A stretch of 64,000 nucleotides of DNA, taken from the NCBI RefSeq assembly GCF_009914755.1, contig NC_060935.1, one strand, 5' to 3'. The notes beneath the pieces are model-generated. The model searched no databases. It had not been told where the DNA came from and was given only the letters and a program-made list of their open reading frames with translations. A program made the translations under genes and the position numbers. The DNA is from the human T2T-CHM13v2.0 reference genome, Homo sapiens. Positions 44,791 to 55,734 of the stretch are shown one piece after another (the first letter of the stretch is position 1; each line of letters opens with the position of its first letter).

Positions 44791-45468
44791 ACCATCTGAC
44801 CTCTGTATGGTGGTTTGTGACTCTGGGGTGATGTGTTGTAAAGCCTCCCTCTCTTTCTCCATACTAAACAAGTATTATATCTCTGTGAATGAACCAGACT
44901 TTAGTGTTCAGACCAGGCCCTGAACTATGTGTGGGCTGCTTGTTTTTCTCACACATTTAGAAACTATGGCTTAGAGAGGGGAATTCCTCATATTTTATCT
45001 GATCAATAACTGACCACCAGATCTCACTAGTTTGACTAAGAATTTCTAACCCTCACTAGGTATTTCTAAACTAAAACATGTTTCTAAACATTTTTATCCC
45101 TGACTATGGCCCAAATAGTAAATAAAACAGCTCAAGCTTTAGAGGCCCAAGAGACCTATGTAAATGTGTTGGTTAAAATAGTTTTAGATAATAAAAGGGC
45201 CCTCAATTATTTATGGGCCTGTCAAGGCAAAATCTGCACAACAGCCAGTACATCTCATTATAAATAATTTAGGAGAAGTGGAATAATCAGTCAATTAAGA
45301 AAAATGGCCCTTTATCTAAAGTTGGCCATTTAGATTCACGGGACTTATTCCTGTTGGATCTAGGCCATGAGAAAACTGGATAAAAAGTGGTTTTCAAATG
45401 TTTCTTGTGGTATTTGTGACTGTTGTCATATTTCTTGCCTTTCTCTGGTTCTGATATTCAGGTGCTAT

Positions 45469-46000
45469 TGAGAGAGGAGGAAGGAAGAAACTAGTCAGGC
45501 AGGCAGTTAGGGTGGGCCCTCAGTCAAATTCCTTCAAACAAAAGAACAGCCTGAAAAATCAAACTGCAGATAAGGGAACTTGTACAGGGGGGCTTGCCTA
45601 AAACATGCCCACAGCCACATACATTAAAACAAGGCTACACAGGAGACTTGCCTAGACATGCTCACAATAGAAAATTCCATCCCCTGACACATGCACAGTA
45701 AGGGGAACAAAGCCACATGGAGTAACTCAAGCTAAGGGCTTGCATGCACACTACGAGGATGGGGTGGAGCTACCAGAAATGTGTGCCTTATGCCTTTGTA
45801 TTCAGCTGTGAAATGGCAACCCTCTTTTGGGCCCCCTCTCTGCAGTGGAGTGCTTTCTTCTTTTGCTTATTAAACTTTCACTTCAACTTCATCTTTGGGG
45901 TCCGCGCTCCTTAATTTTCTTGGTCATGAGACAAAGAACTTCAGGTGATACCTTGGGCAATGAGAGACTGCTACATTGTGGTGCATTGACGAGACTAACA
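45469..46000 (+). mobile_element. 5' LTR (532 bp)
   Basis: TGAGAGAGGAGG...GAGACTAACA, colinear with 54291-54867. ATTAAA at 45869-74. Confidence 0.93.
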
Positions 46001-46003
46001 TTT

Positions 46004-46021
46004 TGGTGCATTGGCCAGGAA
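46004..46021 (+). promoter_or_regulatory. Primer-binding site complementary to the tRNA-Gly 3' end
   Basis: TGGTGCATTGGCCAGGAA versus TGGTGCATTGGCCGGGAA expected for tRNA-Gly(GCC)+CCA (17/18), 3 nt after the LTR. Confidence 0.85.
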
Positions 46022-51980: not shown

Positions 51981-54185
51981 GGCCGAGTCTGCTAGGACTT
52001 TTTATTGGGTTTGGTAATACGTCACACCCTTTAGCCTCTACTGTGTCAGCCATGTCCCATTTATACAAGACAAATTGCTGGGTCTGTCCTGAGCGGTTTG
52101 GTCAGTTCAGTAACACTAAGGAACCTCTTGATGACTTGGTATTTACTGTCTTAGCATTCCCTTTGTTAGCTTTACCTTTAGCCATTAAAGACTTGTCAGG
52201 CATAAATGGAACATGGTATGGGAACACTTTCAACTGAGTAACTAACTCCTCCCAGGAAAGCATTTCCTCCCTGGTGCCAGAAAACACTTTCCCCAAAGAT
52301 AAGCCTCACACCCTCAGGCTAGGAAAAGTTGGCCGGGTAATAGCAAATGCCTCCTCCTGTTTTAAAAGCAGAGGAAAAGGACCATACCTGGGAGATCTCA
52401 AATATTATAACACCATACTTGTAATTGCTGAAAGCTCGGAAGTTTGGAGAAAAAGACATAAGAAGGATGATCTAAGAAAATTGGAAGCCATATGGAGGGG
52501 AGGCTTTCAGAATTCAGCGTCTCCTCCTGGTTGAAAGTCCTGCTGGGAATGGCAGGCTCTGGGTAACCACCCTGACACATGGCACTATAATGTAAAAAAC
52601 AACACATAGGCCTTCCCAGACATGCACCCTCATGGGATTCCAGACCCCCTGTATGATGCTTAGTAGTAGTGGCCTACAAATCTGTGGGTGAACAGAACAG
52701 GAGACTTCTGGACTGACAGCCCCTGTCACAAGGGGGCATTATCTGAGATATTGGCCAGGGCATATCGTGTCCCTGGTCTTTTGAAACTCCATTTGTCGGC
52801 CAGGTGTGGTGGCTTACGACTGTAATCCCAGCACTTTGGGAGGCTGAGGCAGGTAGATGATGAGGTCAGGAGTTCAAGACTAGCCTGGACAATATGGTGA
52901 AACCCCGTCTGTACTAATAATACAAAAAAAAAAAAAAAAAAAAAGCCAGGCGTGGTGGTGCATGCCTGTAGTCCCAGCTACTTGGGAGGCTGAGGCAGGA
53001 GAATTGCGTGAACCCGGGAAGCAGAAGTTGCAGAAAGCCAAGATTGTGCCACTGCACTCTAGCCTGGGCAACAGAGTAAGTCTCCATCTCAAAAAACAAA
53101 CAAACAAACAAAACTCAATTTATCAGGTGGACCTTTCTCATTTAGCATGTAAAATTCCAAATGGCATCGTGAGTGACTATCCTGAGTATAGATATCCCCA
53201 TCCCAAAGATGTTCCTATTACATGCAGGAGGGGGAAGCTTCTAAGATATGAGAAAGATCTGCCTGTGTCTCTCACAAGCTACAACTTAGAACTGGCCCTT
53301 CAGGGGACAGGGCTTTATTTCCTTTGTGGCTCCTGGCTACACTTAATCCTCCCTAGGCACTGGAAGGGAACCTGCACTATCGTGGCAGTGGTTCCTGACC
53401 TGTTATCTTTAAATTCCACTGATATGGCAGCATCATCTGGGGACATCCCTAGCCTAGCGTCTTTTCTAGTGAGTGTGCTATCTCAGATGCGCTGAACAAA
53501 GAGGTCTATCATTTCCATGCCCTCATATGGAGACTTAACTGAAAGAGAAGATTGGGTAGGACCTGCACATGACAATCCTATCTCAGAAAAACCATGGATA
53601 GGGGATTCTATAGTCAGAGGCCTATTCTGGTTTGCTGGTATTCCTCTCCTTGAAAAATCAGTACTTAATATTTCTATTATGATGCCACAAGGGTAGAAGC
53701 TAACAGTAGGAGCCATAGAAGCACAACAACAATTCATAAACTCTTTAGCCTCAGTAGTTATGCAAAATAGACAGGCCCTAGATATCCTTATGGCCAAAGT
53801 AGGGGGTACCTGTGCACTTTTAAAAAGAAGCATGTCACTTCTAGATCAATACCTCTAGTCAAGTAGAAGAGAATGTACAGGTGCTTAAAGATCAAATTAG
53901 AACATTGACAGATTAAGAGAGAATGCGGGCTCCAGTCCCAGTTGGCTACAATCCCTCTTAAATGGATTCCAGTCTTCTTTGTGGAACTGGTTAGCTCCTT
54001 TATTAGGCCCCCTTTTGCTCGTGTGTTTTGTACTAATGTTTGGACTTTGTATATTCAATACTGTAACTCAAATTGTTTCCTCTCACTTAGAGGCTATTAA
54101 ACTCCAAATGGTGCTGCAGATAGAACCACACATAGACACGCCATTCTTCTGGGGACCCTTAGACCAATCTCAGGAGGAGCCCTAA
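51981..54185 (+). pseudogene. env, decayed, with a nested Alu
   Basis: TNCWVC (CxxC), GLYFLCG..GTCTI, broken furin site R*TKR (~53490-53504), immunosuppressive domain MQNRQALDILMAKVGGTC (~53760), TM WLAPLLGPLLLV, LEAIKLQM. Confidence 0.9.
52798..53113 (+). mobile_element. Alu inserted in env, with an expanded central A tract (52924-52944)
   Basis: Alu consensus with imperfect TSD AAACTCCATTTGTC / AAACTCAATTTATC. Confidence 0.92.
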
Positions 54186-54290
54186 CTGCTGTAACCCCAA
54201 CGACGCCCCCTTCCAGCAGGAAGCAGCCAGGAGTGGTCATCGTCCACTTTCCCCAACAGCAGTTGGGGTCTCCACTCCTGAAGCAGGGAA

Positions 54291-54867
54291 TGAGAAAGGA
54301 GGAAGGAAGAAACCAGTCAGACAGGCAGTTAGGGTGGGTCCTCGGTAAAATTCTTCCAAACAAAAGAACAGCTTGAAAAATCAAACTGCAGGCACAGAGA
54401 AGAGAACTTGTACAGGGAGGCTTGCCTTAGACATGTCCACAGCTGCCTAGGTAAGAAAGACTACACAGGAGACTTGCCCAGAGATGCCCACAATGGAAAA
54501 TTCCATTCCCTGAGACATGCGCAGTAAGGGGAACAAAGCCATATGGAGTAACTCAAGCTAAGGGCCTGCATGCACACTGGGAGGATAGGGTAGAACTACC
54601 AGAAATTCATGCTTTATGCAAATGAGATGCCCAGCACTCATCAATTTCTTACAAAAGCCTCTGTATTCAACTGTGAAATGGCGACACTCTTTTGGGCCCC
54701 CTCTTGGCAGTGGGGAGCTTTCTTTTTTCACTTTTTAAATTTTTGCTCCAACCTCACCTTTGGGGTCCATGCTCCTTAATTTTCTTGGTTATGAGACAAA
54801 GAACTTCAGGTGATACCTTGGGCAATGAGAGACTGCTACATTGTGGTGCATTGGTGAGACTGTAAAA
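54291..54867 (+). mobile_element. 3' LTR (577 bp)
   Basis: TGAGAAAGGAGG...GACTGTAAAA then the CTAT TSD. Roughly 10% diverged from the 5' LTR by eye. The poly(A) hexamer position reads TTTAAA (54734-39). Confidence 0.93.
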
Positions 54868-55734
54868 CTATCAGTTTATTGCTGATAACCCCAACATCAG
54901 CAATGATGCTTATGGAAAAAGAAAACAAACCCTTTATGATCAGCTGGATCCTTTAGTTGTTTGCAAAGATGACTCCAATCCTACACCCTTCCCTGAATCC
55001 ATGTCCATTGCTGTGTAACTTTGTAGTGCCTCTAACTGTGTGACCTCTTTCAGCCAACTTAAGAAGACAGCAGTGAAGGCGTGCCAGTTCCAAGTGTAAG
55101 CCCCAAGAGGTCTTGTGTGTCTTCATTTGCTTCCTCGTGTGCTTCTAATGGTGCTGGGAGAAGAACAGGTCGAGACTAGCCTGCTGGAGGATGAGAGATG
55201 CTGGCTACCACATCCTTGTTGCTCCAGTGGAGGCCAGGCTAGATCAGATGACAGCCACCTGACTCCATGTGAGCAAATCTGAGATCAGCAGAGCTGGCAG
55301 AGCCAACTCTCAAATACTTGGAAAATACTTTTAATATGTAAAACATTTTAAATATTACATTAATATTTAAAATGTTTTTTAAAGCCACTGTTTTATACTG
55401 GCTTTGTTACACAGCATAAGCTAAGTGCTACAACTCCTCAGGAAGCTGAGCTTTGACCAAAAGAAGTGTGGTAGCCACAGAGATGTGTCTGAGACCCCCT
55501 TCGAGAGAGAGCCTGTGTGAGGAGTGCAGTCAGCTGATGGGCTCCAGCTACAGATCTCAGGGATCTGCATCAGTATTCCAGCTGGTGCCATGCTCTCCCC
55601 AGACTGCTTCTGCCACTGACTGAGCAAGGCAGGAGCTCCGTGTTGGGAGCTGATGCTGGAATACTGAACTATATCCCGAGATCTCCAGCTGCTGATCTCG
55701 GGGATCTGGGGTGGCCAAGACTTTCTCAGAGTGT

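What the first reader, a model, noticed from the sequence alone, without database searches (positions are those of the whole stretch)
45430..54885. The provirus appears to have split the ancestral last exon of B7-H6
Seen: a pyrimidine tract and CAG acceptor (TTTCTTGCCTTTCTCTGGTTCTGATATTCAG|G, AG at 45460-61) lie only 7 nt before the 5' LTR. Removing the provirus and one CTAT TSD copy gives GTG CTA TCA GTT TAT TGC TGA (stop now at 54883-85). Joined to the phase-0 exon-4 donor this reads ..IPWKK-VLSVYC*. Inference: this is the pre-insertion terminal exon with a short tail. The virus would then have destroyed the original ending and supplied the Gag replacement. The Gag origin of the tail is established; I do not recall this empty-site reconstruction being described.
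Basis: partly seen in the sequence, partly recalled or inferred. Interest (0 to 1): 0.8.

Follow-up and report, generated by a model that had tools for sequence, protein, structure and literature searches.

The report
Provirus cut off B7-H6's old tail exon
An ancient retrovirus landed at the very start of the short last exon that other mammals use to end the B7-H6 protein, so primates now end this immune-alarm protein with virus-derived sequence; the old exon still lies beside the virus.

Summary
In detail: AG at 45460-61, 7 host bases, a 9.4-kb ERV1 provirus (LTRs 45469-46000 and 54291-54867) with CTAT duplications, and a joined reading VLSVYC-stop.

The DNA just 3' of the provirus is the tail exon that other mammals use. 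The tarsier tail aligns colinearly to 54893-55267 (E 3.6e-13). A profile of 13-residue outgroup tails ranks 54875 17th of 67,711 sites, and 2nd on residues 5-13.

It starts at 54875, straight after a second AG (54873-74). It runs 13 codons to 54914-16, where seven of the 21 picked outgroup tails stop and human reads GGA. None of 119 orthologue proteins ends VLSV-like.

I favour (about 0.6) integration into the 3' splice site, 3-7 bases upstream of an intact exon, parting it from its pyrimidine tract.

The upstream AG is real: baboon and mangabey models use it and stop in the LTR. The Gag tail enters through a pre-gag acceptor conserved across the virus family.

Outgroup evidence is predicted proteins only. 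No outgroup DNA was available.

The parts
44494..44591 (+). NCR3LG1 exon 4 (transmembrane segment, ends ...IPWKK) with a phase-0 donor
   Evidence: Hub annotation. Translation and sequence. 858 coding bases up to 44591.
45430..45461 (+). Used in baboon and mangabey models. In my favoured reading it was a decoy AG at -12/-11 of the old intron.
   Evidence: Pyrimidine fraction 0.72, 86th percentile of 4,416 AGs. P0012 and P0013 tails map to 45459-45491.
45462..45468 (+). Seven host bases between the AG and the LTR. The last four (45465-68, CTAT) are the 5' copy of the target-site duplication.
45469..46000 (+). 5' LTR (TG...CA). It holds an internal acceptor used by the orang-utan model P0008 and the stop codon of the monkey VPLREEEGRN ending.
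   Evidence: K2P distance to the 3' LTR is 0.142.
46004..46021 (+). Primer-binding-site-like 18-mer starting TGG, 3 bases after the LTR. The tRNA-Gly assignment is recalled, not tested.
   Evidence: position only
46033..46038 (+). GTGAGT donor in the viral leader. The orang-utan model P0008 appears to splice from about here to the pre-gag acceptor; the exact base is read from the sequence, not from a junction.
   Evidence: One search shows GTGAGT at 46033-38. In one search the P0008 tail maps to 45866-46060, with the match to the window failing just after the residues encoded up to about 46033, and then to 47637-47675.
47611..47632 (+). Viral pre-gag pyrimidine tract and AG (47631-32), the acceptor of human exon 5
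   Evidence: Pyrimidine fraction 1.0, 99.8th percentile. AG kept in 15 of 19 family copies and the tract in 19 of 19.
47633..48139 (+). Coding part of exon 5: 168 residues of Gag (matrix and the proline-rich region after it), starting at the gag initiator position
   Evidence: ORF. Pfam Gag_MA E 3.9e-6, 27.1 bits, below the curated cut-off of 30. ATG follows the AG in 15 of 18 other copies.
48297..54185 (+). Rest of the provirus in broken frames: capsid, zinc knuckle, reverse transcriptase and the envelope C-terminus. An Alu lies at 52794-53120.
   Evidence: Pfam hits Gag_p30, zf-CCHC, RVT_1 and TLV_coat. Alu sequence.
54291..54867 (+). 3' LTR
   Evidence: End confirmed against 10 other copies.
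54868..54874 (+). 3' copy of the CTAT duplication (54868-71) followed by CAG. The AG at 54873-74 is the likely ancestral acceptor, now preceded by purine-rich LTR sequence.
   Evidence: Pyrimidine fraction 0.33, 9th percentile.
54875..54916 (+). Remnant of the ancestral tail exon. Thirteen codons (FIADNPNISNDAY) are followed by GGA at the place where the seven 13-residue outgroup tails have their stop codon.
   Evidence: Ranks 17th of 67,711 in full and 2nd on residues 5-13.
54917..55331 (+). Continuation of the old terminal exon. It is 3' UTR in most species but read as coding in the tarsier, porcupine and cattle models. Single copy in the genome.
   Evidence: tarsier E 3.6e-13; porcupine E 1.3e-6; unnamed P0055 E 0.001 and Bos indicus P0065 E 0.009 at 55224-55268. 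(one other weak 55-base match in the genome).
56757..56841 (+). Remnant of a second, downstream tail exon (SILKAASWKIQTDTRRD-stop). It is homologous to the end of carnivore and Myotis tails. The red colobus model P0010 splices to the AG at 56799-800.
   Evidence: rank 1 of 58,834, score 37.5 against 22.5 for the runner-up. Single copy.

Best explanation
A sense-oriented ERV1 provirus integrated in an anthropoid ancestor at the 5' boundary of the short terminal exon that encoded the B7-H6 cytoplasmic tail. One paper names this copy HUERSP3_11p15.1.

In other mammals that exon encodes about 13 residues and a stop. Its remnant lies intact immediately 3' of the provirus, at 54875-54916.

The integration most likely fell 3-7 bases upstream of the exon, between the pyrimidine tract and the acceptor AG (now 54873-74). 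The exon was therefore not split. It was separated by 9.4 kb from the signals needed to splice it.

Exon 4 then joined whatever acceptor came next. One option is the upstream AG at 45460-61, giving a 10-residue tail that stops in the LTR (monkey models). The other is the virus's own pre-gag acceptor at 47631-32. Exon 4 ends in phase 0 and that AG abuts the gag start codon, so this joins the transmembrane exon in frame to Gag residue 1. That is the human 168-residue tail.

Shown here: the anatomy, the homology of the flank to outgroup tails, the frame and length agreement, and the conservation of the viral acceptor.

Inferred: which AG was the ancestral acceptor, and the order of events.
For: Anatomy:
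- LTR pair, CTAT duplication and LTR ends.
- gag-pol-env domain order.

The flank is the old exon:
- Tarsier P0109 tail residues 7-123 of 147 align colinearly to 54893-55267 (E 3.6e-13), and residues 127-144 to 55278-55331.
- Porcupine P0115 aligns to 54953-55030 (E 1.3e-6).
- Cattle-type tails (unnamed P0055, Bos indicus P0065) align to 55157-55268.
- 54872-55400 is single copy in the genome apart from one 55-base weak match.

Frame and length:
- A gapless profile of eight outgroup 13-residue tails ranks the 13-mer at 54875 17th of 67,711 stop-free 13-mers, and 2nd on residues 5-13.
- With seven non-primates the ranks are 26th and 2nd. With five, leaving out lagomorphs, they are 3rd and 1st.
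- Seven of 21 picked outgroup tails are exactly 13 residues. Asp is at residue 11 in 9 of 21. Human has Asp at 11 and Tyr at 13 when counted from 54875.
- Extending the tarsier alignment without gaps puts the tarsier exon start at 54875.

Splice signals:
- The AG at 54873-74 now has a pyrimidine fraction of 0.33 (9th percentile).
- The viral acceptor has 1.0 (99.8th percentile).

Viral origin of the exon 5 acceptor:
- AG kept in 15 of 19 family copies, the window's own copy included.
- Pyrimidine fraction at least 0.8 in 19 of 19.
- ATG directly after the AG in 15 of 18 other copies.

Age:
- The marmoset tail P0016 maps inside the provirus at 47576-47629, 16 of 18 identical.
- LTR K2P distance is 0.142, or 0.129 without CpG sites.
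Against: - All outgroup evidence is protein only, and mostly automatic gene models. Some, such as the 147-residue tarsier tail, read through what is UTR elsewhere. No outgroup DNA could be aligned, so conservation of either AG is untested.
- The first four residues from 54875 (FIAD) score -5.5 against the outgroups.
- The bases upstream of the second AG read Cys-Tyr-Gln in the same frame across the insertion. This resembles outgroup residues 2-4 (p about 0.011; porcupine starts Cys-Tyr). That favours the split-exon rival.
- In the empty site the second AG has only 0.56 pyrimidines and another AG 12 bases upstream. That is unusual for a real acceptor. The stronger tract serves the first AG, which monkeys use.
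- Lemur catta P0020 ends straight after exon 4 (WKR-stop). Neither version explains this.
- The 21 tails were picked by me from 119. I left out models that read on into the intron, truncated models and those without a recognisable membrane boundary.
- No protein in the 5.8-billion-sequence database carries the human 54872-55015 translation, so use of this exon in living anthropoids is not shown.
- No AATAAA or ATTAAA lies between 54868 and 58000.
Confidence: 0.6

Rival explanations
1. The AG at 45460-61 was the ancestral acceptor and the provirus landed 7 bases inside the exon, splitting it. Either the ancestral tail was the conserved 13-residue type and the human copy later changed by one or two bases at the exon start and gained 12 bases after the insertion point. 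Or the pre-insertion allele already read VLSVYC-stop.
For: - The first AG has the better pyrimidine tract: 0.72 against 0.56 for the second AG in the empty-site context.
- It is used today in the Papio and Cercocebus models P0013 and P0012.
- Across the insertion, the flank reads Cys-Tyr | Gln in the same frame as the conserved downstream residues. This matches outgroup residues 2-4 (Cys-His-Arg, Cys-Arg-Arg; porcupine Cys-Tyr) with p about 0.011 among all tripeptides of the window.
- Leaving out the four poorly matching residues FIAD would again give 13 residues.
Against: - From this AG the conserved frame is one base out of phase with exon 4 and four codons too long, so two indels are needed.
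- 0 of 119 orthologue proteins end VLSV-like.
- Tarsier, guinea pig, porcupine and the 13-residue tails all align without gaps from 54875, with Asp at residue 11.
Confidence: 0.25
2. The provirus hit an ordinary intron. The main ancestral last exon of anthropoids was the downstream one at about 56757-56841, and the exon beside the provirus was at most a minor alternative.
For: - 56788-56835 is the best match in the whole window to carnivore tail ends: rank 1 of 58,834, score 37.5 against 22.5 for the runner-up. A stop falls close to where those tails end.
- The red colobus model P0010 splices exon 4 to the AG at 56799-800.
- An Eptesicus model, P0083, reads the same stretch in the third frame.
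Against: - The tarsier, the closest outgroup found, joins exon 4 to the exon beside the provirus. So do bats outside Myotis, beaver, rabbit, porcupine, guinea pig and cattle.
- The first nine residues of the carnivore and Myotis tails look like the first nine of the 13-residue tails (Val-x-His-Arg...Leu). This suggests they use the same exon with an internal donor and then the downstream exon.
- The human stretch just upstream of 56788 matches those nine residues only at the top 1% level: rank 854 of 81,942.
Confidence: 0.08
3. Chance. The flank only looks like outgroup tails, and the acceptor and short ORF are accidents of intron sequence.
For: - The acceptor alone is unremarkable, at the 86th percentile.
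- Single 13-residue tails give no tblastn hit at 54875. Rabbit P0037 and unnamed P0054 hit other places at E 0.1-0.4.
Against: - Tarsier E 3.6e-13 and porcupine E 1.3e-6, both colinear.
- Profile ranks of 1 to 26 out of 67,711 at a site fixed beforehand.
- Single-copy DNA.
- Monkey gene models use the AG.
Confidence: 0.03

Closest known systems
Terminal-exon capture by an intronic or splice-site retroelement ('natural gene trap'), in which a host transcript ends in a provirus or LTR (recalled as a general class; no named example was checked here)
   Same: A sense-oriented provirus offers an acceptor, an ORF and an end to the transcript. The host donor splices into it and the downstream host exon falls out of use.
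   Different: The captured ORF is Gag from its first codon, joined in frame to a membrane protein. The displaced host exon lies untouched a few bases from the 3' LTR. Different primate lineages appear to use different virus-borne endings: leader in marmoset, LTR in baboon and mangabey, Gag in human and gibbon.
B7-H6 Gag-like cytoplasmic domain (Brandt et al. 2009, PMC2715080; passages read)
   Same: Same gene and same tail. The paper states that the intracytoplasmic domain is homologous to GAG polyprotein and lists the ITIM-like, SH2-binding and SH3-binding motifs.
   Different: The passages I read say nothing about where the virus integrated, what tail it replaced, or the tails of other species.
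HUERSP3_11p15.1 locus (PMC10622969; passage read)
   Same: Names this provirus and states that it lies within the last intron and last exon of NCR3LG1.
   Different: It is an expression study in leukaemia with no analysis of the integration site or the ancestral exon. Its SI figure S3 could not be seen.
Domesticated gag genes (recalled examples: Fv1, ARC, PEG10, PNMA family)
   Same: Retroviral or retrotransposon Gag sequence kept as host protein.
   Different: Those are free-standing genes that use capsid functions. Here only the matrix and proline-rich part is used, as the tail of an Ig-superfamily ligand. No selection test was run.

Membership tests
ERV1 (gammaretrovirus-like) provirus | Two LTRs in the same orientation with TG...CA ends | tested here: met
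   45469-46000 and 54291-54867, 87% mean column identity. The 5' LTR ends CA and the 3' LTR ends AA, where 8 of 10 other copies have CA.
ERV1 (gammaretrovirus-like) provirus | Short target-site duplication (4 bases for this class; the class rule is recalled) | tested here: met
   CTAT at 45465-68 and 54868-71. A 4-base match at fixed positions has about a 1 in 256 chance.
ERV1 (gammaretrovirus-like) provirus | gag (MA, p30, zinc knuckle) - pol (RT) - env order | tested here: met
   Pfam hits in order along the + strand: Gag_MA, Gag_p30, zf-CCHC, RVT_1, TLV_coat. Gag_MA scores 27.1 bits, below the cut-off of 30. All frames are broken.
ERV1 (gammaretrovirus-like) provirus | Primer-binding site complementary to a tRNA 3' end | not tested
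   An 18-mer starting TGG sits 3 bases after the LTR. The tRNA-Gly match is recalled only.
Insertion that splits an exon | Host sequence homologous to the outgroup exon on the 3' side of the insert | tested here: met
Insertion that splits an exon | Host sequence homologous to the outgroup exon on the 5' side of the insert, in phase with the upstream exon | tested here: inconclusive
   Only 7 bases are available. Cys-Tyr plus Gln resembles outgroup residues 2-4 (p about 0.011). But it is one base out of phase with exon 4, and the outgroup tails align without gaps from 54875.
Insertion that splits an exon | Acceptor upstream of the insert conserved and used in species without the insert | not testable with these tools
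   No mammalian outgroup DNA or junction reads were available. Use is shown only in species that carry the provirus (P0012 and P0013).
Retroelement-derived terminal exon (exonisation) | Acceptor, ORF and transcript end all inside the element, with the ORF in frame with the host exon | tested here: met
   Exon 5 is 47633-52942 in the hub annotation. The acceptor is viral. The junction is phase 0. The ORF runs to 48139.

The most novel reading that the evidence does not exclude
One integration event, a few bases from a splice site, retired a 13-codon tail exon conserved across placental mammals. It left B7-H6 to be finished by whichever viral signal each primate lineage came to prefer: leader sequence in marmoset, an LTR stop in baboons and mangabeys, and full Gag matrix plus the proline-rich region only in apes and humans.

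On this reading, the ITIM-like, SH2-binding and SH3-binding motifs of the human tail are ape-specific viral sequence. They would have no counterpart in the monkey, rodent or carnivore proteins used as models. The gene survived the hit because the LTR at once supplied a short tail of about the old length.
Probability: 0.35. Interest if true: 0.6.

Novelty: new member of a known kind. Interest (0 to 1): 0.45.

Why it matters
B7-H6 is the tumour ligand of the NK receptor NKp30 and a target for antibodies and CAR cells. Its cytoplasmic tail is usually described by its signalling motifs. A 2024 review even expands GAG as glycosaminoglycan (PMC11476788, passage read).

The old tail exon lies intact beside the provirus, and other mammals end the protein with about 13 unrelated residues. 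This gives a concrete before-and-after case of a retrovirus rewriting the end of an immune gene. It also predicts that tail-dependent signalling, trafficking or shedding is not shared with monkeys or other model species. The ancestral short-tailed form can be built from natural orthologues and compared with the human protein.

The Gag origin itself is not new, so this is a well-documented example of a known process rather than a new kind of element.

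Tried and rejected
- I first read the match between the flank (NISNDAY) and an unnamed tail (P0031) as possibly accidental. Carnivore tails mapped 1.9 kb downstream, which briefly made 'insertion in a plain intron' the leading idea. The tarsier, porcupine and cattle tails and the profile scans reversed that.
- A search of the protein database with the translation of 54872-55015, asking for longer proteins, found nothing: 1 candidate, none scored. No living anthropoid isoform using the old exon was found. 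This is weak evidence.
- Single 13-residue tails gave no tblastn hit at 54875. Rabbit P0037 and unnamed P0054 hit other places in the flank at E 0.36 and 0.10. Only the profile and the long tails are informative.
- I scanned the first nine residues of carnivore and Myotis tails to decide whether those tails come from one exon or two. The result does not decide it: 56757 ranks 854th and 56767 523rd of 81,942, and the provirus-site frames rank below 16,000th.
- No canonical polyadenylation hexamer lies in 54868-58000, so I could not place the old transcript end.
- Literature. Searches found no description of the integration site or the ancestral tail. Most 'endogenous retrovirus' hits come from the name of HHLA2.
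- Flajnik et al. 2012 (Immunogenetics 64:571) is the paper most likely to compare tails across species. It is not held, by DOI or by PMC id, so the claim that this is undescribed is limited to what could be searched.
- Earlier findings of this scan were not open to the session.

Full report
**Observation**

- An AG lies at 45460-61 behind a pyrimidine-rich stretch. Seven host bases follow, and then an LTR starts with TG at 45469.
- The LTR pair is 45469-46000 and 54291-54867.
- CTAT flanks both ends, at 45465-68 and 54868-71.
- I checked the LTR 3' end against 10 other copies of the family in the same genome. Eight end in AACA at the homologous base, and all 10 diverge immediately after it.
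- Exon 4 ends in phase 0 with ...IPWKK.

On its own this is not beyond chance. The acceptor's pyrimidine fraction is only at the 86th percentile of 4,416 AGs in the window. A stop within seven codons is also expected.

**What the insert is**

Pfam places the following in order on the + strand, all in broken frames:

- Gag matrix
- Gag p30
- a zinc knuckle
- reverse transcriptase
- the C-terminus of a gamma-type envelope

One paper names the locus HUERSP3_11p15.1. [quoted passage not shown] Brandt et al. 2009 already stated that the tail is homologous to GAG polyprotein (PMC2715080, passages read).

The LTRs differ by K2P 0.142, or 0.129 without CpG sites. That gives roughly 30-65 million years over the range of rates I tried. 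The marmoset protein P0016 ends in 18 residues that map inside the provirus at 47576-47629, with 16 of 18 identical. The integration therefore predates the split of New and Old World monkeys.

**Outgroup tails**

The protein database holds mammalian NCR3LG1 orthologues. Searches gave 119 proteins.

None of the 119 has VLSV in its last 40 residues or ends Val-Leu/Pro-Ser plus a few residues.

Many non-primates instead end with a short tail right after the membrane segment. Seven of the 21 tails I could delimit are exactly 13 residues, typically ...Asp-x-Tyr-stop.

Other models read further:

- Tarsier P0109: 147 residues.
- Porcupine P0115: 68 residues.
- Bos indicus P0065: 112 residues.

**Where these tails map in human**

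- The tarsier tail aligns colinearly to the DNA just 3' of the provirus. Residues 7-123 match 54893-55267 (E 3.6e-13) and residues 127-144 match 55278-55331.
- The porcupine tail matches 54953-55030 (E 1.3e-6).
- Cattle-type tails (unnamed P0055, Bos indicus P0065) match 55157-55268.
- This DNA is single copy in the genome.

I then scanned a gapless profile of eight 13-residue tails over every stop-free 13-mer of the window in six frames.

| Profile | Full 13-mer rank at 54875 | Rank on residues 5-13 |
|---|---|---|
| Eight tails (with tarsier) | 17th of 67,711 | 2nd |
| Seven non-primates | 26th of 67,711 | 2nd |
| Five (no lagomorphs) | 3rd of 67,711 | 1st |

The 3' flank of the provirus is therefore the tail exon of other mammals.

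**Which frame and which acceptor**

It begins at 54875, directly after CAG (54872-74), and reads FIADNPNISNDAY. GGA follows at 54914-16, where the seven 13-residue outgroup tails have their stop.

Counted from 54875, human has Asp at residue 11 and Tyr at residue 13. Asp is at residue 11 in 9 of 21 picked outgroup tails. Leaving out carnivores and Myotis, it is 9 of 15.

Extending the tarsier alignment back without gaps also puts the start of the tarsier exon at 54875.

The simplest reading is that the AG at 54873-74 was the ancestral acceptor. The provirus would then have gone in 3-7 bases upstream of it, inside the 3' splice site. That AG is now preceded by the purine-rich LTR end, with a pyrimidine fraction of 0.33 (9th percentile).

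I give this version about 0.6.

I give the split-exon version about 0.25, on these grounds:

- The first AG has the better tract: 0.72 against 0.56 for the second AG in the empty-site context. The second AG would also have had another AG 12 bases upstream.
- The first AG is used in the Papio anubis X2 and Cercocebus atys models. Their ending VPLREEEGRN maps to 45459-45491 and stops in the LTR.
- Across the insertion the host bases read Cys-Tyr | Gln in the conserved frame, like outgroup residues 2-4 (p about 0.011).
- The four residues FIAD fit the outgroups badly (score -5.5).

Against it, this version needs a one- or two-base change at the exon start and a 12-base gain.

Only outgroup DNA can settle the choice, and none was available here.

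**How the Gag tail got in**

The acceptor of human exon 5 (AG 47631-32) has an all-pyrimidine tract, at the 99.8th percentile. It is a feature of the virus family, not a later invention. Among 19 covered copies in the genome, the window's own included:

- 15 keep the AG.
- All 19 keep a tract of at least 0.8.
- In 15 of the 18 other copies an ATG follows the AG directly.

A phase-0 donor joined to this AG therefore reads Gag from its first codon. The gibbon protein P0009 starts the tail with Met and the human protein with Ile.

The orang-utan model P0008 shows the viral leader being spliced. It runs from an LTR-internal acceptor to about the GTGAGT at 46033, and then to the same pre-gag acceptor in another frame.

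**A second tail exon**

Carnivore and Myotis tails end in a stretch that maps to 56788-56835. This is rank 1 of 58,834, with a score of 37.5 against 22.5 for the runner-up. It reads SILKAASWKIQTDTRRD-stop in human and is single copy.

The red colobus model P0010 joins exon 4 to the AG at 56799-800. So 'the' last exon is a simplification.

The first nine residues of those tails resemble the start of the 13-residue tails. That suggests an internal donor in the exon beside the provirus. My scan could not decide this.

**Limits**

- Outgroup evidence is predicted proteins, several from unnamed sources and several clearly over-extended.
- The 21 tails were chosen by me from 119. I left out models that read on into the intron, truncated models and those without a recognisable membrane boundary.
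- Lemur catta P0020 stops right after exon 4 and is unexplained.
- No anthropoid protein using the old exon was found.

**Novelty**

Searches found no account of the integration site or of the displaced exon.

Flajnik et al. 2012 could not be read, nor could the SI of PMC10622969. Either may bear on this.

The process, a retroelement capturing the end of a host transcript, is a known kind. This is a clean and medically relevant member of it.

Noticed in passing
window 52794-53120, especially 52924-52944: The annotated 3' end of the NCR3LG1 mRNA (52942) falls at the end of a run of about 21 A in the middle of an Alu inserted in the provirus. No AATAAA precedes it closely. The end may be an oligo-dT internal-priming artefact, and the real polyadenylation site may lie elsewhere.
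   Followed up: partly
window 56757-56841: Single-copy remnant of a further tail exon, homologous to the last 16-20 residues of carnivore and Myotis B7-H6. It is used in another frame by a red colobus model and in the third frame by an Eptesicus model (P0083). No AG precedes 56757 in human.
   Followed up: partly
proteins P0005-P0019: Among the primate proteins retrieved, a Gag tail appears only in human (P0007), gibbon (P0009) and, cut after six residues, bonobo X2 (P0006). None of the 6 Old World monkey and none of the 4 New World monkey proteins has it. They end by reading on into the intron, in the LTR, in the viral leader or in the downstream exon, and two New World models are truncated. 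The Gag tail may be ape-specific in use.
   Followed up: no
window 44592-44830 and 46120-46299: The read-through of intron 4 ([10 protein letters not shown]...) is annotated as coding in bonobo, macaque, colobus, capuchin, porpoise and snow leopard models. About 180 bases of it are repeated inside the provirus leader at 46120-46299: 70-81% identity at protein level over 54-61 aligned residues. Either the virus leader and the intron share a repeat, or host sequence was copied.
   Followed up: no
protein P0020 (Lemur catta X1): The lemur model ends exactly at the end of exon 4 (…FWKR-stop), so its next exon must open with a stop codon. Neither version of the ancestral exon explains this.
   Followed up: no
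PMC11476788: A 2024 review of B7-H6 expands the GAG of the tail as 'glycosaminoglycan'. The viral origin of the tail is not common knowledge in the field.
   Followed up: yes
L011 (another copy of the LTR family): One unrelated copy of the LTR also ends AAAA and is followed by CTAG, close to the CTAT seen here. This is probably coincidence. It is a reminder that a 4-base duplication is weak evidence on its own.
   Followed up: no
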